A DNA stretch of 64,000 bases from Chiloscyllium plagiosum. Lineage: Eukaryota. This document shows, in pieces, positions 165 to 62,110 of this stretch (within the stretch, counting starts at the first letter, position 1; each line of letters opens with the position of its first letter). The notes under the pieces are model-generated. The model was not told the DNA's origin. It was given only the letters and a program-made list of their open reading frames with translations, and did no database searches. The position numbers and the translations under genes are program-made. The stretch spans positions 58,247,704 to 58,311,703 of the forward strand of contig NC_057718.1 in NCBI RefSeq assembly GCF_004010195.1. The letters are read 5' to 3'.

Positions 165-349
165 GAAATAAGAACAAAAATGTCATGATAGTTTTCAGCA
201 TTTCAGGCAGCAACAGATCAAAGGTCATTGATCTGAAAAATGAACTGTCTATTGTTCCACAGACGTGGATCAGGTGCTACCTGACCTACTGAGCATTTCC
301 AGCGTTTTCAGTTTTCCGATTTCTAAAATCTGCTGGGTTTTGCTTTTGC
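165..349 (+). mobile_element. Old PLE terminal-repeat derivative (short inverted arm, sense arm, tail) with a decayed hammerhead
   Basis: ctacctgacctactgagcatttccagc resembles the arms at 16273 and 40205; aaggtcattgatctgaaa is a helix II + GAAA remnant; a partial inverted arm (tcaggcagca) lies upstream. Confidence 0.6.
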
Positions 350-480
350 ATTTGTTAATTCATTACTATTTATTTCTCTTGAGGAACTGATTGGCTTGAA
401 GTTTGCTTTTCTCATCATTAGTCTTTTCCACCTTGTTCATTTTTTTTGTTTTATATTTCCCTTTCCCTTGACAACAGTTG

Positions 481-3312: not shown

Positions 3313-3735
3313 TCATTCGAGTCTTAACAATATGTCAGTAATCACATTTTCTCGTCCTGTCACGTGCACAATTTTCACATTGAATGGCTGTAACAACAAG
3401 CTCCATCTAAACAGTCTGGCATTTTTGTCCTGAAGTTTCTCCACAAGCGTCAATGGGTTATGATCAGCGTACATGATTGTCTCAGATATGTTACTCATAA
3501 CAGAAACATTGCAATGTTGTAACGGCAACACCAAGCTCAAAGTCTCCTCCTCAACTATTGAATATTTCTGCTGATGAATGTTCAATTTCCTGGAGAAATA
3601 CCCGAAAGGTCTTTCTACCATTTTGTCGTCTTCCTGCAAGAGTACAGCACCGACATCCACGCCACTTGCATCAACAGCCACCTTGAATAGCTTTGCATAA
3701 TCAGGTGTGGCTAATATTGGGGCAGTGGTTAACAC
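3313..3735 (-). pseudogene. Gypsy pol RNase H domain
   Basis: LFKVAVDASGVDVGAVLLQ...YFSRKLN..QQKYS..EEETL...ADHNPL...RLFRWSLLLQPFNVKIVHVTGRENV. Confidence 0.92.
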
Positions 3736-4620
3736 AGCTTTCAGACTGTCAAATGCCTTCTGACAGTCCTCTGTCTACTGAAACTTCTTGCCTTTCTTTA
3801 ACAATTCAATGAGTGGAGTAGCCATACTGCTAAAATTTGGCATGCATTTTTGATAAAATTCACTCAATTCTGGGAACCGTAGTACTGCTCTTATTGTTGA
3901 TGGTATGGGTAACTCCCCAATTAACTTTGTTCTTGCATCCTATGGGGCCATTTATCCATATCCAATAACACGGTCCAGGAAGGTGACTTCGGCTTTGGCA
4001 AATTCACTTTTAGCCAGGTTTATCACCAAGCCGACCTCCTGAAGTCGAATGAGCAAGTCTGATAAATGTTGCATATGTTCCTCCCATGTGTGACTCAAAA
4101 ATCACCAGGTCATCTATATAGAGACACAATTGGATAATTGAACAGTGACCTGACTGGTTAATCTCTGAAATGTGATTGGCGCATTTTTCATACCAAATGG
4201 CATGACTTTAAACTGATCCAGTACATTCGGTGTTACGAAAGCTGAAATTGCCTTCACTGTTTCTGACAAAGGTACCTTCTGGTATCCTCCAACTTAGAAA
4301 TATATGTTGCTTGTCCCACCCTCTCAACACAATCTTCCAAACACAGAATCGGATATACATCAGACTTTGTAACTACATTGATTTTGCGATTAGTCCACAC
4401 ATAACCGTTGGATACCATCTGGTTTTGGCATTATTATTGTGGGTGAGCTCCAGTCACTATAACTCATTTTGATTATATCATCTTGGAGGATACATTCAAT
4501 CTTCTTTGGAATCTGTGCCAACTTTAGAAAGTTATGCCAATAAAGATGTTGCATAATCGGAACAGCATCTTCTATATCTACATCATGCATAATTAGGTTA
4601 GTACTTCCCAGTTTATTTCC
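3736..4620 (-). pseudogene. Gypsy pol reverse transcriptase domain (disrupted)
   Basis: Minus-strand SDWSSP...KPDG..RLCVD (4390-4450), MPFGMKNAPITFQR (about 4161-4203), CLYIDDLVIF (about 4098-4127). Confidence 0.92.
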
Positions 4621-10280: not shown

Positions 10281-10771
10281 TTAATTGTTTGTCCTTTTCT
10301 GAAATGTCGGTAATGCACTAATTAATATATATCATCCATGTTAAATATCATTTACCACTTAATTGCCAAGCCTTTGCAGTTTCAGGAGAATCAGGTCTGT
10401 TAAACAGGTCTATGTGGTACCCACACTCCCTTCAACATTCTGTATCATTCATTTTACTTGAAGTTAGTTCAAGTAACCAATATCTTTGTGAATTTGATAA
10501 TTTCCTGCCGAGAAAGTAAAGATGATTTAACCAACCAGCTTCATTTAAGTGCTGCCAGTTAACCTTCCATCCACAATCAGTTTAAGTAGGCAAAAAACAG
10601 GCAGCCAAGAATCATATGCTGAACTGTGGAGAAGATGGGCCTTTTTGGAAGCTCTGCCTAAAGGAAAATGCATGTTGAAGTAGTCTGGGAGATGTGAGGA
10701 CTTTCATAGGATCTGTTCTCTTCCTCCTATAAAGCAAAGCCTCTGACTTACCTGAAGCATCCCTAAGAAAT

Positions 10772-11434
10772 AGAAACATAAACAGAAATTGCTGGAAAAG
10801 CTCAGCAGATCTGGCAGCACCTACAGAAATCAGAGATAACACTTTGGGTCCGGTGACCCTTCCTCAGAACTGATGGTAACTCGGAAAAATTTGTTTTTTC
10901 ATGCAGAAGATAGGGGATAAGAGGGTAACAATAGATGGAAATACAGCTCAAAGAGAGAGAAGGACAGTTGGACAGACAAAGGAGTAGATAACGGTCAGCC
11001 TAGGCAAATGAATAGCTATTAATGGGGGACTATTAGTGACTAACAATGGATTGGCTGTAATAACAAACCATGTGATAGCAAGGCCTGGTGTGTGGACGTT
11101 GGTGTAAGTACATGGGAAAAGATGCCTCAAACCCTAAAATTGTTGAACTCGATATTGAGTCCAGGAGGTGTAGAGTTCACAGGCGGAAAATGAGGTGCTG
11201 TTCTTTCAGCTTGCACTGAGCTTTGCTGGAATACTGCAGCAAGCCTGAGACAGAGATGTTGGCTGAAGAACAAGGCGATGTGTTAAGGTGATAGGACACG
11301 GAAAGCTTAGGGTCTTTTTTGCGGGCAGAATATAAGTGTTGTGTGAAGTGGTCACCCAGCCTATGCTTCATTTCCCCAAAATAGAGGAGACCACATTTTG
11401 AGCAGTGAAGGCAGTAAACTGGATTGAAATACAT
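10772..11434 (-). mobile_element. Penelope-like element 3' end: GIY-YIG endonuclease remnant, UTR and terminal repeat with decayed hammerhead
   Basis: VYCLHCSKCGLLYFGEMKHRLGDHF...KLKEQHLIFRL, then a frameshifted GLNIEFNNFR; minus-strand CTGAGGAagggtcaccggaccc at about 10845-10867. Confidence 0.9.
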
Positions 11435-12529
11435 TATGCTTCATGAACTGATGAGCAAGCTGATCTTATTGGAATAGTGTGTTCCAGCATCAAGTAGAAA
11501 TAAATACAACAACAGAAGTCTGCTCTACAGACTATGCGTAACATACAATATCATCAACAACAACCTGTATTTATGTAAGGCAATGAAAAGCAATAAAACA
11601 TCTCAGGGCATTTCACAGAATTGAATTGTGAAAGAAAATTTGATGCCAAGCCACATAAGTTGTGTTGGGTTTTACAATATAAAATCTGATATCAGCCGTC
11701 CATCAGGTATTCGAGAACACACTCACAGGAGGCAGGAATGAAACATTTCGAGACATTGCAACAGCAATCACATATAGAGAATTGTTGGCAGCCAGAATCT
11801 GGTCTCCTGAACCCTCACCAAACTAGTCAGGATTTTAATTCAGGAAACTGGGCTAAATTTCAACTTGATATCATTAGAAAATATGTTTATTGCTAATGGT
11901 TAGTTTTAACATTTTCATTACCTTACAGGAAGATTTCTTTCCCTTTTATTTAATGAATGCTTCACTTTTTGTGAGATTCAACTGTTGTCTTTTTGATAAA
12001 TTTTTGACTGGAGTCTTTGGTATTACTCAAAGAACAGAGAGCTGTTCTAATATCATCTCTTATTAACTGTTAAGTGAGGCCATTAGGACTCTGGAACAGC
12101 ACAGCAATGGTACCATAGAGTCACACATCACAAGGTATAATTAGCACAGTGTGGGCAAGTTTAGAGTACTCTCTGGAAGAAGCTTGCAACACTCTAAAAT
12201 GAGAACGAGTCGTGGCAGTGTGTAAAGATAGATTATTCCTTACTCTAAGTCAGAGCCTGGTATACTTATTATTTATCAAGTACAGTAGTATTTATTATTA
12301 AAGTATAATAAGTAACATTATTTTGAAGCATAAAGATAGTCTTGACTTTGCCTTCTCTACTGCTAGTCTGTGTCAAACACAAACTCATATTTTGGCATCA
12401 CACCACATGGTAGAAGATCTAACACACAAAAGGAGCTGTCTGTCATATTTATTAATTTGTATGGAAACATGAAAGCTGATGTAAAAAATTACATCCAGTC
12501 CTCTCCAAAACAAACTGAAACTCGCAGAA

Positions 12530-12792
12530 GCATGACAGTGTGAGCAGATGCTAATCGACCTTTTGGGTCTGCACCAACTCTGAGGACCAACTGACCCAGC
12601 CACAGACCCTACACTATCCCCATAACCCTGTATTTACAATGACTAACCCACTTAGCCTGTACATCCCTGGACATTACAGGGCAATTTAGTATGACCAATC
12701 CGATTAATCTGCACATCTTTGGACTGTAGGAAGAAACTGGAGCATCCAGTGGAAACACATGCAGACATGGGGAGGATGTAGTCCACACAGTA
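12530..12792 (-). mobile_element. HE1-like V-SINE, diverged and headless
   Basis: gcacatctttggactgtaggaagaaactggagcatcc is the reverse complement of the central domain seen at 61806. Confidence 0.8.
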
Positions 12793-14560: not shown

Positions 14561-16272
14561 CCTAAGGTTCAGCCAAATGATATAAGTGGTCAGTGCCTCA
14601 CGTGATAGTGGCTATCACAGCAGTTAAGAAAACACAGAACATAACTGAAGGCTTCCTGAATGGCTGACCGCTCTTCCAAGAAAGTAGTAAAATTCTCACC
14701 TCGAAGCAATGAATACTGGTCCCAGCATTATATTTCTCTGGGGCAGCAGTCAGCACTGTGGCTGGCTTCGTCCTCAGATTTTTACCCGGGAGGCCAGGGA
14801 TGATGGCATCCCAAAAACATCCAACCCCAAATATGCAACATCTGAACTTATATTATCAAAGCAAAATATGTGGCAAATAAGTGGTTCTTTATAAAAAGCC
14901 ATATTAACAATGATGAATGCTGTAGGTGCGTATCCAGGCTTTTGTCTCTTTAATTAACAAAGACGCTTTAGTTTGCAATCAGTGTTTACCTTGTCAGTTC
15001 ACAGATACATTTTAAATTTGACATTATTTATCTGTTCATCTGTTTTATTTATGTTATTTCCTTACATTTCTGTGCAGCATTTTTGTCTCTTTGAGATTCC
15101 AAGCTCTTTATTTCTGTGATCATAAAATGTTTCAACGGACTCCTGTATTTGATGTCTTGTATGTATAAAAGCAACAAAAGCAGAGACTTGTCCTTTTTTG
15201 GTTCTCTGCCAATATCTTTTTGATGCTGATCATGTGAATTATATTGTCGAATTGTTCTCTATTTTCTTTTGTGGAATTTATTTTGCTGAATAAGTTATCT
15301 GAAATACTTGGACCAAGGATAATACCAAACGTGTACTGAAAATCACACCAAATGTATCAGCATTTTTTAAAGTAATGTACAATAAATGTCATTAAAACCA
15401 GATAATTGATGGGCACACTAATGGCCCTTAAACTAGTGCACATTAATACACACCAGCTATTTGGTACCAAATCACTTACAAAGTGCGTCACCTGTTGCAG
15501 AAAGAAAAAGGCCACAGAATGTTGGTTTGCCTAAATAAAACCTCAGCGTTATTTTATATGTGTCTTGGGTGGATGTTAATTAAACAGTGTCGTTCCCCTT
15601 TTATCATGTTTAAGACATACAGAAGAGTTGCTGTTATCCAACAAGCATTGGATAGGGTGGTGCCTGTAAATAAAAATAAAATGCCAGCTATCAGGGATTT
15701 ACTACAAAAGTAAGAGGTTAAAAAGAAAACTCTATTGACTCATGTAGTATTGCTTTTGAGCATCTCAGAAAATAAAAGCTGATAGTTGGAGACAATAAAG
15801 ACACCATTTATAAAGCTTACTGGAGAAAGCAATAATTAAGACACTATTAATAGCAAGGAAAGCGATGGATGATGTGAAAACAAATCCTTCTCTGTGCTTG
15901 TCACACTGTGTTCTCCTATGCAGCACTTCCTGGCTGGTTACAAAGATGCATTTTTGCAAACAGCTCAGCCACCTACCCTGTTGGCTCAATAAAGGGAAAG
16001 AAGTAGAAGCCAGAAAAACATAAATAATTTCAAATGAGGAATATCACCTTCAATGAAAAGTCAAATGGTTTAAAGTGTATTTAGTTTGTGGATATCAAAG
16101 GGTGGGAATGATATTAGAGATTCTGACTCATGAAGCATTTTGGTTGCTATGGTGCTAGATAATGTAAATCTTACTCTAGTTGGGCAGGCAGGCATTCCCT
16201 ACATGTCTTCAGGAATGTTGATGGTCTTTTGTTACATTTGCAATCATTGAGGATTGACTTATATATGGAATG

Positions 16273-16493
16273 AGCTGAAAATGTGTTGCTGGATCAGCGC
16301 AGCAGGTCAGGCAGCATCCAGGGAACAGGAGAATCGACTTTTCGGGCATAAGCCCTTCTTCAGGAATCCTGAAGAAGGGCTTATGCCCGAAACGTTGATT
16401 CTCCTGTCACCTGGATGCTGCCTGACCTGCTGCGCTGTTCCAGCAACACATTTTCAGCTCTGATCTCCAGCATCTGCAGACCTCACTTTCTCC
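16273..16493 (+). mobile_element. Palindromic PLE-derived mini-element with paired hammerheads and 14-bp TSD
   Basis: Inverted arms centred at 16366, a ~34-nt tail, and ttatatatggaatg at 16259-16272 and 16494-16507. Confidence 0.92.
16363..16402 (+). ncRNA. Minimal type I hammerhead ribozyme motif
   Basis: ggaatc CTGAAGA a GGGC ttat GCCC GAAA C GTT gattct; helix I ggaauc/gauucu, palindromic ACGU helix III, GUU triplet. Confidence 0.75.
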
Positions 16494-16567
16494 TTATATA
16501 TGGAATGACACAGACTGTGGTATAAAATGTCAATTTTTGCATATAGTAAAAAGGATCATGTCGACCA

Positions 16568-16690
16568 CTGAAGAAGGGTGACTGGAGCCAAAATTTCTCT
16601 CTGCAGGTGCTTTCAGACCTGCTGAGATTTTCCAGCAATTCCTGTTTTTGTTTTTGATTTCCAATATCCGCAGTTCTTTCGGTTTTTTGT
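16568..16690 (+). mobile_element. Degenerate PLE terminal repeat (second subfamily) with tail
   Basis: ctgaagaagggtgactggagccaaaa, then cagacctgctgagattttccagcaattcctg and the tail. Confidence 0.7.
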
Positions 16691-20106: not shown

Positions 20107-20829
20107 ACAGTTCCCACAGACTCCATGTTCAGTAGCCAATTTGGTGAAGGTAGATTCCACAAATTTGTCAGCTACCCCTCAGAGATTAATGGCACTAGCG
20201 GACACCAAATCTCATTAAGACTGTGTCTCCTTTGGAAGGAATTCTGATTCTTCACACTTGAAAGTCTAGCTTCAAAGCTTCCTCACACTCTAACTCATCA
20301 CAGTGAATAATCATATCCTGGAAGTTCAAACCTTTGGCATCCTTTGGATTCTCAAGGCTGTGTCCCAGTGTCGACTCACAAAACAAATTCTAGCTCCTTC
20401 ACAAACAACCAGCTTCTCTAAGCTGACACTACTCTGAGGGTTTCTCTGAGCTCCATTATTTCTCAGTGAGAAAATGCTGCATGTGGGTTTCCAGGGACTT
20501 CTCCAGCCCGAGCTATCTAGAGTCTGCTAACATCAGCACTCTCACAATTGCAAAGTCACATGCAGTTTCGTAATCCAACCTTTTTTTAGTGATTAACCTC
20601 TCAAAGCAATGTAACCACAAGCTTCTAAAGGTAGGAGACATTAAGGTGCTTCAGTTGCATTTATTCTACATCTTCAATTAAATTTTAATTCCTAAATAAA
20701 AAAAAGTACTGAACCATGAAGTAAATATTTACAATCTATGACAACAAGCTTTTTCCAAAGACACAATAGCTGGGACCAGTGGAACTTTGACAGTCAGTGG
20801 CTGGTGAGCCCAGATGGGGGGGTAGGCGA

Positions 20830-21440
20830 TGGGGAACTCAGACCAGTTTGGGGGAGAGGGTGCCCTTGTGGGGATGTGGGCCCAGTGTGGGCAAGAGGCT
20901 GTCCTCATGGGGAGTGTGTGCCCAGTTTGGGAGAGAGAGTACCCTAATGGGAGTGGTCTCCCCCAGTGTGGGGGAGCGAGTGCTCTCGTGGGGAATGCGG
21001 GCCCATTGTGGGGGATAGGGTGCCCTAGTGGGGAGTGCGGGCCCATTGTGGGGGAGAGAGTATCCTAGTGGGAGTGTGGGCCCAGTGTGGGGGAGAGAGT
21101 GCCCTAGTGGGGAGTGTGGGGAAGAGAGTGCCCCATGGAGATGTGAGCACAGTGTGGGCAAGAGGCTGTCCATGTGTGGAGTCTGGGCCCAGTATGGAGT
21201 GGGGGGAGTGCCCTCTTGAAGACTGTAGGCCCATTGTGGGCAAGAGGCTGTCTGTCCGTGTGGGGAGTGTCGGCCCAGTGTGTGGGGGGAGGGGGGGGGA
21301 AGGGTGCCCTAGTGGGGAGTGTGGGCCCATTGTGGGGGAGAGGGTGCCCTCGTGGAGATGTGGGCCCAGTGTGGGCAAGAGGCTGTCCTTGTGGGGAGTG
21401 CAGGCCCAGTGTGGAGGAGAGGGTGCCCTCGTGGCGAGAG
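20830..21440. repeat. G-rich minisatellite, unit about 40 bp, about 15 copies
   Basis: gtgggcccagtgtgggggagagggtgccctagtggggagt alternates with the variant gtgggcccagtgtgggcaagaggctgtcct. Confidence 0.92.
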
Positions 21441-40185: not shown

Positions 40186-40204
40186 CCTGTACCATGGATA
40201 ACAT

Positions 40205-40426
40205 AGCTGAAAATGTGTTGCTGGAAAAGCGCAGCAGGTCAGGCAGCATCCAGGGAACAGGAGAATCGACGTTTCGGGCATAAGCCCTTCTTCAGGAATT
40301 CCTGAAGAAGGGCTTATGCCCGAAACGTCGATTCTCCTGTTCCCTGGATGCTGCCTGACCTGCTGCGCTTTTCAGCTACCACATTTTCAGCTCTGATCTC
40401 CAGCATCTGCAGACCTCACTTTCTCC
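40205..40426 (+). mobile_element. Palindromic PLE-derived mini-element with paired hammerheads and 13-bp TSD
   Basis: 94-bp arms (40205-40298 and 40299-40392) with the inner 75 bp perfectly complementary; 34-nt tail at 40393-40426; TSD ccatggataacat / ccatggagaacat. Confidence 0.94.
40295..40334 (+). ncRNA. Minimal hammerhead ribozyme motif (mirror copy on the minus strand at 40263-40302)
   Basis: CTGAAGA (40302-40308) a GGGC ttat GCCC GAAA C GTC gattc; helix I needs a one-base bulge. Confidence 0.75.
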
Positions 40427-41829
40427 CCATGGAGAACATACAAATGGAACTAGCTGCTTCAATTTCAAGCAGTACCCACATATGCTATTTACATTATCTC
40501 TCCTCATTTTAAACAGAGCTCACCCTGATGATTGCTCAAGTGAAGAATGTTCTCATGTCCATGGGGGGTTTGATCAATCCCATCCACAGTTATTCTGTAT
40601 GTCATTCTATCCATTTTTAAACAGGACTTTTTGTGAAATGAAGATCAGATCGAACACATTCATTGTCAGAAATCTGGACTCCTATCATTTGAATCTTACA
40701 TCCTTAACCTTGAGTCAGCTCCAAGTCTTGTGCTTTTGAAGAGCCTTTTAACCAAATTAAAAATATATTGGAGAAATTCTGGGCTTAACAGTGCCATTAT
40801 TGAATAAGTTTTAACTTTTTAAAAAAAAATTGACATTAACATTTCTGAGGACTGTGACAAGTCACCCAGACTTAACAGAACCTCCCAAGAATAATTTTCT
40901 AAGTCCTGTAAACGGCTTGACCATGGGGGTCCAAGGGTTATGAAGTCACTTACACAAGAAACTCAAATTGTTATGTATACTGAGTGCTGCACTATTTCTT
41001 GGTTAACATGTTCATGAAATCAATCTATCATGTCAGTACCTCTATACAAATCATTTCATTCCATTCCACAGCTCATTTAAAAGTTAATTTAAAGATTCAA
41101 AGTCCTGTAAATCTCTGGGTTATGAAATGTGGCCCATTTCTGATATTATCTATTTGCCAGTTGCCTTTTCAATAAAACCATATGACTCTTTAATGTTCGC
41201 CCACTTCCCATTAGATATTTTTTTGCTGAAGACTGACTATCTTAATAACAGGGGCATTTTTTTATCAGACAAGTTTAAAGTAATAAACCACATTTAAGCA
41301 AAGGGAACAAAAGTTACCAGGAATGTAGAAAAGTAAATGTTGTGTCCCTATGGTAATTTATGTTTACATTAATAGTTCTCTATAACAAAGTGTTGTAACT
41401 TATTTAGTGACTTGTGACATTAAGTCCACTCCACATGGCTACAGATAATCTCATGCTGCCTTGCAATTACTTTTCAAATCTGTGCAGAGAGGGATTTTTT
41501 TAAAGTAAAATGAACCTGCTAGGAAGACAATCTTGAAAATATACCATTTCTCAAGGTTACTGATTTATGGTTAACATGAGAAAAGTGAATGATTTACAAA
41601 GTTTTATCATTGGGTTAAAAATCCAGGAATCTGACATAATAAAGGTAGAATTTATCTTATCTAGTTAATAATAATGAATATTAGTAATTTATGAATATAG
41701 AGAATTGTGAAACTAAAGTTCAAAACCCTGTGTAATAAGAACAAAACATACTTGGTCAATGTAAATTATTGTTCTAACTTGTCCTTTGAACCATTTCAAG
41801 GAGACTGAAAATTACATGCGCTACAATGC

Positions 41830-44655: not shown

Positions 44656-44940
44656 GGGGCGGCACCATGGCTCAGTGGTTAGCACTGTTGCCTGGATTGG
44701 GTGACTGTCTGTGTGGAGTTTGCACGTTCTCCCTGTGTCTGCGTGGGTTTCCTCCCGGGTGCTCCAGTTTCTTCCCACAGTCCAAAGATGTGCAGGTCAA
44801 GTGAATTGGTCATGCTAAATTGCCCATGGTGTTAGGTGCATTAGTCAGACGGAAATGGGTTTGGCTGGATTATTCTTTGGAGGGTTGGTACGGACTTGTT
44901 GGGCCAAAGGGGCTGTTTCCACACTGTAGGGAATCTAATC
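44656..44940 (+). mobile_element. HE1-like V-SINE with an internal deletion in the head
   Basis: ggggcggcaccatggctcagtggttagcactg...tgtgtggagtttgcacgttctccc...aatctaatc. Confidence 0.92.
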
Positions 44941-45019
44941 AAAATATAGAATTCTTTCAATGGTTATGGAGCCAAATGAGGATACAGAAATAGATTTGAC
45001 GGAGAAATGATGGTATTTT

Positions 45020-45290: not shown

Positions 45291-45473
45291 AAAGACCAAA
45301 GAGAGAGTAGACTTGTATTATTAAGATTGTGATTTGCACAGTGCAGTTACATTGGAAAATATGTAATGGTTGAAGCAACATGTTAAGACTTATGAAATTG
45401 TGATGCATTCTCATTAAAATGTGAAAATTCAATAATTGACTGTTCTGACGGACAACAATATAAACATATTTCA

Positions 45474-45823
45474 GTTGAAACTTTATTGCTGGAACAGCAC
45501 AGCAGGTCAGGCAGCATCCAGGGAACAGGAGATTCGACGTTTCGGGCACAGGCCCTTCTTCAGGAATGAGCAGAGAGTGTTCAGCAGGAGAAGATAAAAG
45601 GTAGGGAGGAGGGACTTGGAGGAGGGGAGTTGGAAATGTGATAGGTGGAAAGAGGTCAAGGTGAGGGTGATAGGTCGGAGTAGGATGGAGGCGGAGAGGT
45701 CAAGAAGAAGACTGCAGGTCAGGAAGGCGGTGCCGGGCTGGAAGGATCCGGCTGAGACAAGGTGGGGGGAGGGGGGATGAAGAAACTGGTGAAGTCCAAG
45801 TTCATCCCCTGCGGTTGGAGGGT
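45474..45823 (-). mobile_element. Young PLE 3' fragment (GIY-YIG C-terminus, UTR, terminal repeat), TSD CATATTTCA
   Basis: Minus strand translates TLQPQGMNLDFTSF; its terminal ~92 bp closely match the palindrome arms; catatttca at 45465-45473 and 45824-45832. Confidence 0.9.
45532..45567 (-). ncRNA. Minimal hammerhead ribozyme motif in the PLE terminal repeat
   Basis: attc CTGAAGA a GGGC ctgt GCCC GAAA C GTC gaat; intact core, 4-bp helix I, palindromic ACGU. Confidence 0.8.
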
Positions 45824-46099
45824 CATATTTCACCAAAGTTTATTTCCAAAGTACAATAGGAGATTTATCTCTGTAACTGCTGACAAATACGAATGTTGCA
45901 TTACGTGAAAATTGCATTGCCAATCTAGTTTATTATCCCCTCAGTTTATAGTTTCATTCCTCCATATGTACACGCAGAATGATGCTTTTCACCAGCTATG
46001 TTTAACCATGCTGTCAAGCTACAGAAACTAGCTCTGTTAAAACTTGATTACAACCCTTAATTGCACCTCTGTACAAGGGCAGCCTACCTGTTCCTCACT

Positions 46100-49670: not shown

Positions 49671-49976
49671 GGGGTGGCATGGTGGCTCAGTGGTTAGCAC
49701 TACTGCCTCAAAGTAACCCGGGTTTGATTCCAGCCTCGGGCAACTGTCTGTGTGGAGTTTGCACATTCTCCCCCTGTCTGTGTGGGTTTCCTCCTACAAT
49801 CCAAAGATGTGCAGGTTGGGTGAACAGGCCATGCTAAATTGCCCAGAGTGTTAGGTGCATTTGTCAGGTCTAAATACAGGGTAGGGGAATGGGTCTGGGT
49901 GGGTTACTTTTCAGAGGGTCAGTGTAGACTTGTTGGGCTGAAGAGCCTGTTTCCATACTGCAGGAATCTAATCTAA
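49671..49976 (+). mobile_element. HE1-like V-SINE
   Basis: ggggtggcatggtggctcagtggttagcactactgcctca...gggtttgattcc...aatctaatctaa. Confidence 0.92.
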
Positions 49977-56448: not shown

Positions 56449-57680
56449 TTTATAATGATGCAGGTGGACGCTGCCGAGCGACCAGAGACTTTGACTGCTG
56501 TAGGGGTGGTAAGTAAAACCTGGAAGGGGCCATCCCAGTGAGGTTGGAGACCCTTGTGAGTCCAGTTCCTGATGAGCACAAACGAACCAGGCACCACCCG
56601 TGACGAGGCTGAAAGGGAGAGAACATCGCCATAGACTGTGTGCATCTGGGAGTGAAAGGCACTCACAACGTTAATTAGAACAAGAAATAACAAAACATTT
56701 TCTCGGTCATGTGGTGGATGTGGACTGAGGAGGGAGCCGAATCGTTCCAAGGAGTATGGAGCGGGCGGCTGTAGAGAATCTCAGTTGGAGATAGTCATGT
56801 CTTGCCCACAGGTGCGGATCACATCTGGAATAAGGCCACAGGGAGCAGCATAACCCAGGAGAGGACAGTCTCAGCCATTACTTTGGCATGTTTAGTCTTA
56901 AGAGTCTGGTTAAAACATTCAACAAGGCTGGCAGCCTGAGGACGATAAGCACAATGCAATTGCCAATGAATAGAAAACTGGGAACAGAGCTCTTCATTAA
57001 TATAACCCACATGGTGCAGTCCATTGTCCGAGCTAATGCAGTCAGCTATACTGAAGCAGGGAATAATTTCCTTAAGCAAAATCTTCACCACAGTCTCAGC
57101 GACAGTGTTGGTAAGAGGGTAGACTTCAATCCACTTAGAAAATACATCAACAATAACCAAAATGTATTTATAATATTGGCATTTACTCAACTCAATGTAA
57201 TCCAGTTGGAGTATCTCAAAAGGACTGCCAGGTGAAGGGTTATCTTCCCCTGATCACAGGGCACACTCTTGCCACGGTTATACTCCTGACAGATCAAGCA
57301 ATGGCCACTAACTCTCTGAGCCAACAAACTGCAGGTGGGCATGCCACCAGGTGTTCAGAAGTAAGTCACTAACCCCTCTGGCACCACCATGAGTTGTGCA
57401 ATGAACACATTCAATAATCCATAGAACAAGATCATCAGACACACAAGTTTGACCCACGGGAGTAGTCCAGAGTTGAGTGTCAGTGTCATACACACAGTCC
57501 AACTTGGACCATAACAGCTTATCAGTGTCAGGGGCGTCCCCCTGAAGTTTAACAACATCTTGGAAGGTTGGCACTAATTTATTTGAAGTAGACTGGTTCT
57601 TGTTAGAATTTGTAGGCTGCCTCATCATTCTGGACACAACCATAAGATCCCCTTTAGAGGCTGCTTTTCAGATGGCGCCA
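56445..57680 (-). pseudogene. pol: ERV pol 3' part (end of RNase H linker and integrase)
   Basis: HHCC (VHCTTHGG...CLICQEYN), DDE (LQLDYI, ISSDNG, LVECFNQTLK), YILVIVDVFSKWIEVYP, C-terminal LQPHWDGPFQVLLTTPTAVKV. Confidence 0.93.
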
Positions 57681-61805: not shown

Positions 61806-62110
61806 GGGCGGCACGGTGGCTCAGTGGTTAGCACTGCTGCCTCACAGCGCCGGAGACCCGGGTTCAATTCCCGCCTCAGGTGACTGACTGTGTAGAGTTT
61901 GCACGTTCTCCCTGTGTCTGCGTGGGTTTCCTCCGGGTGCTCCGGTTTCCTCCCACTGTCCAAAGATGTGCAGGTCAGGTGAATTGGCCATGCTAAATTG
62001 TCCGTAGTGTTAGGTAAGGGGTAAATGTAGGGATTTGGGTGGGTTGCGCTTCAGCGGGTCGGTGTGGACTTGTTGGGCCGAAGGGCCTGTTTCCACACTA
62101 TAATCTAATC
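61806..62110 (+). mobile_element. Full-length young HE1-like V-SINE
   Basis: A box tggctcagtgg, B box ggttcaattcc, V domain, CR1-type tail ttgggccgaagggcctgtttcc, (TAATC)n end; CpGs largely intact. Confidence 0.95.

What the first reader, a model, noticed from the sequence alone, without database searches (positions are those of the whole stretch)
45465..45832. Link between the palindrome and a coding PLE: same arm fused to a GIY-YIG C-terminus
Seen: a minus-strand fragment encodes TLQPQGMNLDFTSF, followed by a UTR and a hammerhead with a different loop II (CUGU rather than UUAU) and a matched helix I (AUUC/GAAU). It ends at the same AG(C/T)TGAAA boundary as the left arm of the palindromes, has no tail, and has a 9-bp TSD. 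Inference: a closely related PLE family is the source and likely mobiliser, and this boundary is a defined initiation or termination point of reverse transcription.
Basis: partly seen in the sequence, partly recalled or inferred. Interest (0 to 1): 0.72.

Follow-up and report, generated by a model that had tools for sequence, protein, structure and literature searches.

The report
Truncated Penelope retroelement copy, shark-like genome
This is the cut-down tail end of a Penelope-type jumping gene, inserted recently enough that the empty site still exists in another sample; it ties the nearby small palindromes to that element family, in a way already described for such elements.

Summary
Window 45474-45823 (minus strand) is a 5'-truncated copy of an endonuclease-bearing Penelope-like element (PLE), probably Neptune: last 34 codons of the GIY-YIG ORF, 151-nt UTR, minimal hammerhead, terminal module, 9-bp TSD. 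A contig from a second organism is 98.6% identical, runs upstream in frame into EEERLIFRLG (the GIY-YIG end motif) and downstream into the tail that the palindromes carry. A DNA run holds the empty site with the 9-mer once, so the TSD is genuine and the insertion recent. The fragment is a sister subfamily of the palindromes (8 fixed differences in 95 nt), not their direct template. The shared boundary is best read as the inner of two reverse-transcription start sites flanking the optional tail. This was shown in vitro for a Poseidon PLE (PMC11167929), and inverted pLTR plus one-sided tail is standard PLE anatomy (PMC3846280, PMC8557442). A genome-wide end histogram could not be made. The scan has noted this element kind many times on other DNA of this genome. 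New member of a known kind; modest interest as a recently mobile Neptune-type family.

The parts
45465..45473 (+). Target-site duplication, left copy (CATATTTCA); its last A is shared with the element's 3' boundary
   Evidence: empty site in run X1 with 9 letters fitting both sides
45474..45823 (-). 5'-truncated, tail-less copy of an EN+ Penelope-like element (350 nt plus the shared base)
   Evidence: X15 contig: 351 nt, 5 differences
45487..45504 (-). Conserved small hairpin UGCUG-N8-CAGCA, 14 nt inside the tail-less boundary; candidate protein-binding or start-site signal (inferred)
   Evidence: the only consensus structure found on 11 arms; weak, -2.9 kcal/mol, 1 of 5 pairs with a two-sided change
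45532..45567 (-). Minimal type I hammerhead: helix I AUUC/GAAU, CUGAAGA, unpaired A, helix II GGGC-CUGU-GCCC, GAAA-CGUC; predicted cut between 45536 and 45535
   Evidence: not detected by Rfam; cleavage not tested
45568..45718 (-). Pyrimidine-rich 3' UTR between the stop codon and the hammerhead (151 nt)
45719..45823 (-). Last 34 codons and stop of the PLE ORF (end of the GIY-YIG domain plus a proline-rich tail)
45824..45832 (+). Target-site duplication, right copy
16273..16493 (.). Palindrome 1: inverted tail-less arm (16273-16365), centre, direct arm, 34-nt tail (16460-16493); 15-16-bp TSD at 16259-16273 and 16494-16508
40205..40426 (.). Palindrome 2: same layout, centre one base longer, identical tail (40393-40426); 14-bp TSD with one mismatch at 40192-40205 and 40427-40440
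10770..11440 (-). Older, decayed copy of a related PLE family: GIY-YIG end (11180-11440, broken further on), UTR, degenerate hammerhead, tail-less end; ends approximate

Best explanation
The fragment is a recent insertion made by the RT/GIY-YIG protein of an endonuclease-bearing PLE, most likely of the Neptune clade. Shown here: the fragment is the 3' end of such an element; it lies in a 9-bp AT-rich duplicated target whose empty form exists; its family also has the tail; it is a sister subfamily of the palindrome arms. Inferred, by analogy with the Poseidon element tested in vitro: the protein binds the terminal module of the sense RNA, the endonuclease makes a staggered cut in AT-rich DNA, and reverse transcription starts inside the RNA at one of two sites, the inner one (AG(C/T)TGAAA boundary, no tail) or the outer one 34 nt further on (tail included). 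Here it started at the inner site and stopped after about 350 nt, inside the ORF. The palindromes are the same chemistry run from both nicks: one cDNA from the outer site, one from the inner site, each stopping at the front edge of the hammerhead and joined head to head. They are therefore ORF-less PLE insertion products of a sister subfamily rather than a separate kind of element.
For: In-frame EEERLIFRLG upstream and tail downstream in one 510-nt contig at 98.6% identity (X15). Profile of 58 whale-shark-type PLE proteins scores the peptide 14.3 bits, E 0.004, second of 2913 window peptides; 0 of 2000 shuffles reach it, best 1.7. Relatives of that family carry RT motifs (Pfam RVT_1 precomputed on 20 of 28 long hits) and a CX2-5CxxC linker (26 of 28). 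Empty site in X1; X1's word share 0.90 matches the 0.91 expected if only the empty allele is present. Among the 40 of 161 variants shown, the stop variant keeps a stop and all 3 variants in the first 14 codons are third-position. Raw-read depth falls steadily away from the boundary, 231 to 36 over UTR and ORF, Spearman -0.90, the polarity expected if copying starts at the boundary. 3 of 3 young tail-less ends and 2 of 2 tailed ends coincide; of 6 older arms 4 have a tail and 2 stop within about 6-8 nt of the equivalent place. No site separates left arms from right arms, while at the polymorphic site 45495 both arms of palindrome 1 have C and both arms of palindrome 2 have A; the two centres differ by one base and further fold-back joints at 45567 to 45555/45556 occur in X1 and X21. 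Literature: two internal RT start sites bound the tail (PMC11167929); inverted pLTR plus one-sided 30-40-bp tail is typical (PMC3846280; PMC8557442).
Against: The 34-aa peptide alone finds nothing among 1.84 billion representatives or in Pfam, and a profile of 27 distant full-length PLEs gives it only 3.4 bits, outside the E<=5 list (still above all 2000 shuffles). No RT of this exact subfamily was seen; the linker was seen only in relatives. No genome was held, so the end histogram rests on 11 window arms and on 20 of 750 loose-end rows; the 96 X1 contigs leaving at 45473 mix tailed and tail-less copies (agreement 0.44, roughly 14-22% tailed by a crude estimate) and neighbouring positions were not shown. 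The two old tail-less ends are ambiguous by several bases. No pile-up of read starts or ends was found in the poly(A) single-cell run (table 6), though such libraries would hide it. The start region is not a clear AC-rich stem-loop as in the Poseidon element; folds are no better than shuffles. The arm-allele argument is weak: both pairs agreeing has chance 0.43, the observed CC plus AA 0.03. The depth gradient mixes several subfamilies. X6 neither confirmed nor excluded the empty site.
Confidence: 0.8

Rival explanations
1. The palindromes are a non-autonomous family with their own master copies, transcribed as a hairpin and moved in trans by the PLE protein (the plain 'mobiliser' reading).
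For: Two copies in 64 kb share layout, tail-less left boundary and an identical 34-nt tail; pLTR-only mobilisation in trans is described in the rotifer (PMC3846280) and retrozymes are proposed as non-autonomous PLE derivatives (10.64898/2026.07.22.740005).
Against: No left-versus-right diagnostic site; arms share alleles within a copy; centres vary. These are not tandem repeats, so they do not meet the retrozyme definition read.
Confidence: 0.2
2. The boundary is a termination or resolution point: copying runs on an antisense or self-primed template and the endonuclease trims the intermediate at either side of the tail.
For: Antisense self-priming was proposed to explain head-to-head palindromes (PMC3846280 Discussion); the tail was ascribed to EN-mediated resolution (PMC8557442).
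Against: The other end of this copy lies at an arbitrary place inside the ORF, and depth decays away from the boundary, as for 5' truncation of sense-template copying; the later in vitro work maps start sites to the tail edges (PMC11167929).
Confidence: 0.12
3. Hammerhead self-cleavage sets the ends of these insertions.
For: The motif is complete in this subfamily with a matched helix I; a processing role was proposed (PMC4209133).
Against: The predicted cut (45536/45535) is 63 nt from the tail-less boundary and about 31 nt from the frequent 5' ends at 45566/45567; no read ends pile there; hammerhead mutants did not affect insertion in vitro (PMC11167929).
Confidence: 0.05

Closest known systems
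PAc, Poseidon PLE of Anolis carolinensis (Frangieh et al. 2024, PMC11167929; read: abstract, main text, start of methods)
   Same: Hammerhead in the terminal repeat, optional 30-40-nt tail with two sharp edges, AT-rich targets (TSDs here 64-80% AT), C-terminal GIY-YIG.
   Different: Different clade (relatives here have the CX2-5CxxC linker); no clear AC-rich stem-loop at the boundary; ORF start relative to hammerhead and tail not located here; palindromic ORF-less products are not what that paper treats.
Penelope insertions of Adineta vaga with inverted pLTR, optional 31-bp tail and 8-10-bp TSD (Arkhipova et al. 2013, PMC3846280; read: passages and Discussion); general scheme in Craig et al. 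2021 (PMC8557442; passages)
   Same: Direct plus inverted pLTR, palindromic junction, tail at one end only, TSD around the whole unit, 5' truncation.
   Different: Low copy number there, very high here; here the inverted pair occurs with no ORF between.
[quoted passage not shown]
   Same: Type I core, unpaired base before helix II, G-C closing pair, 4-bp helix I, palindromic CG in place of helix III; mostly solo; some pairs on opposite strands.
   Different: Opposite-strand pairs there are 100-700 bp apart, here back to back; sharks are not named in the parts read.
Whale-shark PLE protein fragments (EukProt EP00061, e.g. P0002, P0026, P0032) and Chiloscyllium punctatum XP_072438985 / XP_072440417
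   Same: Same C-terminal motif (LG[ST]LQPxGxNxDFTSFxISPPP); RT, linker and GIY-YIG motifs in the family.
   Different: A sister family (PNGLNVDF versus PQGMNLDF); the Chiloscyllium proteins lack the endonuclease end, so they could not be tied to this fragment.

Membership tests
EN+ Penelope-like element | C-terminal GIY-YIG endonuclease | tested here: met
   In-frame EEERLIFRLG upstream in the X15 contig; profile match E 0.004, 0 of 2000 shuffles; relatives score at or near the Pfam GIY-YIG cut-off (4 of 5 scanned). The catalytic N-terminal part of this subfamily's domain was not seen.
EN+ Penelope-like element | Telomerase-like RT in the same ORF | tested here: inconclusive
   Present in long relatives (20 of 28 with RVT_1) but no full-length copy of this subfamily was reachable.
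EN+ Penelope-like element | Terminal repeat (pLTR) with minimal hammerhead | tested here: met
   tandem pLTR-ORF-pLTR arrangement itself not seen.
EN+ Penelope-like element | Optional 30-40-nt tail at one end | tested here: met
   34-nt tail on both right arms, absent on left arms and on this copy, present in the X15 copy.
EN+ Penelope-like element | TSD and 5' truncation; inverted copy at the 5' end | tested here: met
   9-bp TSD with empty site; 14-16-bp TSDs round the palindromes.
Neptune clade | CX2-5CxxC zinc-finger linker between RT and EN (shared with Nematis) | tested here: inconclusive
   Present in the sister family (P0002, P0003) and in 26 of 28 long relatives; not visible in the fragment.
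Neptune clade | RT phylogeny with reference Neptune elements | not tested
   No RT of this subfamily and no labelled reference set were available.
Non-LTR retrozyme | Head-to-tail tandem units each with a complete hammerhead, no coding sequence | tested here: not met
   Single copy with ORF remnant; the palindromes are inverted, not tandem; definition from 10.64898/2026.07.22.740005.
Hammerhead ribozyme (function) | Self-cleavage after the UH site | not testable with these tools
   Sequence features met; no read-end pile-up in one unsuitable library.

The most novel reading that the evidence does not exclude
A Neptune-type PLE is still mobile in this shark-like lineage, and its protein uses both target nicks and both internal start sites in a single event: one cDNA primed at the outer (tail) site, the other at the inner site with a single target A pairing to a template U, both halting at the front edge of the hammerhead and joining head to head. 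That would explain the long-puzzling inverted pLTR with a one-sided tail without an antisense template, extend internal initiation beyond the Poseidon clade, and offer very many young, partly polymorphic copies on which to test it.
Probability: 0.3. Interest if true: 0.55.

Novelty: new member of a known kind. Interest (0 to 1): 0.27.

Why it matters
As an element it is ordinary: PLE ends with hammerheads, optional tails and inverted repeats are described. Its value is as material. The empty site shows recent mobility, and the abundance of young copies could test in vivo whether the two-start-site mechanism found for one Poseidon element also holds for Neptune elements, and how head-to-head pLTRs arise, a point left open in the papers read.

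Tried and rejected
Rfam found no hammerhead family, only microRNA-like hairpin scores far below gathering on palindrome 2; rejected. phmmer with the 34-aa peptide: 0 hits; Pfam: 0. The Chiloscyllium protein P0088 lacks the endonuclease end and gave no meaningful match. Pattern scans: 0 in metagenome contigs for the hammerhead pattern; with a 20-nt arm word 17 metagenome, 9 prokaryote-genome and 0 viral loci, all 26 only 20-27-nt chance matches; rejected. No RNA holder was listed by the run finder; the laid poly(A) run has many matching reads, but on both strands and mostly running on into unlike sequence (95%), so they are copies inside host transcripts and no evidence of element transcription. 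Single-strand folds were no more stable than shuffles. An ORF start in the terminal module (MLPDLL or MPETS frames) was considered by eye and dropped: frames stop at or near the tail and the loop II start codon is not kept. A 7-bp TSD candidate for the old copy at 10770-11440 is within chance. The zinc-finger flags were discarded because the pattern also hits the endonuclease's own cysteines. Paper searches for a shark Neptune description, PLE twin priming, or elasmobranch PLE polymorphism gave nothing on point; the whale-shark genome paper only lists Penelope as present (PMC8455134, one passage). Repbase and Dfam were not available, so the family may well be catalogued. The supplements of PMC11167929 yielded 7,325 characters with none of four terms; its Fig. 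S1-S2 images, and the preprint's closed supplements, could bear on the comparison of start sites and on shark families.

Full report
Observation. The stretch is as described. On the minus strand, 45823-45719 encodes 34 residues beginning TLQPQGMNLDFTSF and a stop, followed by a 151-nt UTR, a hammerhead motif at 45567-45532 and a 60-nt terminal module ending at 45473. CATATTTCA flanks it on both sides; 6 of 5000 random pairs did as well. The last 95 nt match the arms of two palindromes at 16273-16493 and 40205-40426. The fragment and both left arms stop at the same base, while both right arms run on through an identical 34-nt tail. The hammerhead has the features listed for metazoan minimal hammerheads in PMC4209133; my descriptor expects 0.01 per 64 kb by chance and finds 2, this copy and the right arm of palindrome 1, the other arms failing on helix I. 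Rfam does not see it.

Is the peptide a PLE end? Alone it is too short: no hit among 1.84 billion representatives or in Pfam. The window holds an older related copy at about 10770-11440 with 87 open codons of a GIY-YIG domain. That query led to 58 short proteins, of which the 3 looked up are from the whale shark, and through an alignment to 28 long proteins: 20 of 28 carry RVT_1, 26 of 28 a CX2-5CxxC linker and 23 of 28 end in a PxG(L/I/M)N motif. The whale-shark proteins end EEQHLIFRLG-SLQPNGLNVDFTSFKISPPP, in register with the fragment. A profile of the 58 ranks the peptide second of 2913 window peptides (14.3 bits, E 0.004), with 0 of 2000 shuffles reaching it. A profile of 27 distant full-length proteins gives only 3.4 bits. 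The linker marks Neptune and Nematis (PMC8557442) and the vertebrates sampled in the 2026 preprint held Neptune and Poseidon, so Neptune is the inference; it was not tested by tree.

Reads and contigs. I laid 4 of the 24 listed runs. In X15, from another organism, one 510-nt contig covers 45473-45823 with 5 differences, none in the arm. Behind 45823 it continues with 30 shown letters that read EEERLIFRLG in frame (hand translation); before 45473 it continues 35 nt, 29 of the 30 shown equal to the palindrome tail. In X1 a 4428-nt contig at depth 4.3 joins 45464 to 45824 with 9 letters fitting either side and no other difference in the flanks: the empty site. X1's word share, 0.90, is what the empty allele alone predicts (0.91). 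X1 may be the same species or a very close one. X6 gave no joint either way. Depth inside the element is 10^5-10^7 against 3-10 in the flanks; the tool warns that this is no copy number, but the family is plainly very abundant. Among the 40 variants shown of 161, the stop variant stays a stop and the three variants in the first 14 codons are all third-position.

Relation to the palindromes. Eight positions separate the fragment from all four palindrome arms, and X15 shares the fragment's letters, so these are subfamily differences, not decay. The palindrome-type letters are the majority in the genome runs (60-68% of X1 depth at 45533, 45549, 45551), and a linked-looking set of UTR variants at 45571-45590 shows at least one more coding subfamily. 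Whether that one carries the UUAU arm could not be phased. No site separates left from right arms; at the polymorphic site 45495 both arms of one palindrome have C and both arms of the other have A; the centres differ by one base, and other fold-back joints appear in X1 (1 contig) and X21 (4 and 5 reads).

The boundary. Of 11 arms in the window, 6 have a tail and 5 do not; the 3 young tail-less ends coincide to the base, the 2 old ones lie within several bases and are ambiguous. Loose ends in the runs cluster at 45473 (96 contigs in X1, a mixture of tail and unrelated flanks), at 45486-45487 (related families, whose consensus decays into AT-rich letters near the equivalent place) and at 45566-45567, the front edge of the hammerhead (106 and 87 contigs, 209 reads, low agreement); only 20 of 750 rows were shown, so this is not a histogram. 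Raw-read depth falls from the boundary towards the ORF. In the three young tail-less ends the TSD's last base is the A that the template offers (chance 0.027; n is small). The predicted ribozyme cut matches neither boundary.

Mechanism and prior knowledge. PMC11167929 shows for a Poseidon element that the protein cuts both strands of AT-rich DNA, extends both, and starts reverse transcription inside the RNA at two sites, with the tail being the sequence between them; hammerhead mutants do not matter. PMC3846280 and PMC8557442 describe inverted pLTRs, palindromic junctions and a one-sided tail as usual PLE anatomy, and the former proposes antisense self-priming instead. The fragment fits initiation at the inner site followed by early termination. 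The palindromes fit priming from both nicks, one at each site; that step is my inference, and my searches found no paper stating or testing it, in a library that lacks most subscription journals, Repbase and Dfam. That the host is a shark is inferred from the nearest named proteins.

Verdict. Real, correctly read, and of a known kind; 103 earlier notes in this genome fit the words Penelope and hammerhead. What this locus adds is a direct link between coding end, arm and tail in one subfamily, and an empty site that shows recent mobility. Interest 0.27.

Noticed in passing
window 10770-11440 (-): Older PLE copy of another family with 87 open codons of GIY-YIG, UTR, degenerate hammerhead and tail-less end.
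   Followed up: yes
window 205-356, 791-926, 1416-1563, 16560-16689 (+) and 26423-26530 (-): Five more decayed terminal modules of older PLE families with 5-bp helix II variants; four keep a tail homologous to the young one.
   Followed up: partly
window 16363-16402 (+): In palindrome 1 the junction itself supplies the 5' strand of a 6-bp helix I for the right-arm hammerhead, whereas isolated UUAU-type arms have a mismatched helix I. Single case; could be chance or a reason for the centre's form.
   Followed up: no
window 45567 to 45534 / 45524 / 45521 (table 5c): Several contigs in X1 and X6 have joints from the hammerhead's front edge to places near or past the predicted cut site; kind of joint not shown. 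Unexplained; may be short tandem hammerhead units or asymmetric fold-backs.
   Followed up: no
window 45605: A 13-nt deletion in 10 of about 200 RNA reads, not listed in the DNA contigs; probably a subfamily variant.
   Followed up: no
window 3316-3774 (-) and 56822-57253 (-): LTR-retroelement remnants: RT-RNase H (E 3e-26) and integrase core (E 1e-12) by Pfam.
   Followed up: no
window 33159-33476 (-): Weak RVT_1 match (E 8e-4), probably a LINE remnant.
   Followed up: no
window 20810-21437: G-rich minisatellite with a unit of about 20/40 nt.
   Followed up: no
window 44677-44941, 49716-49960, 61856-62103, 37612-37845, 12679-12779: Five copies of a SINE-like repeat; resemblance to shark HE1 SINEs is recalled, not tested.
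   Followed up: no
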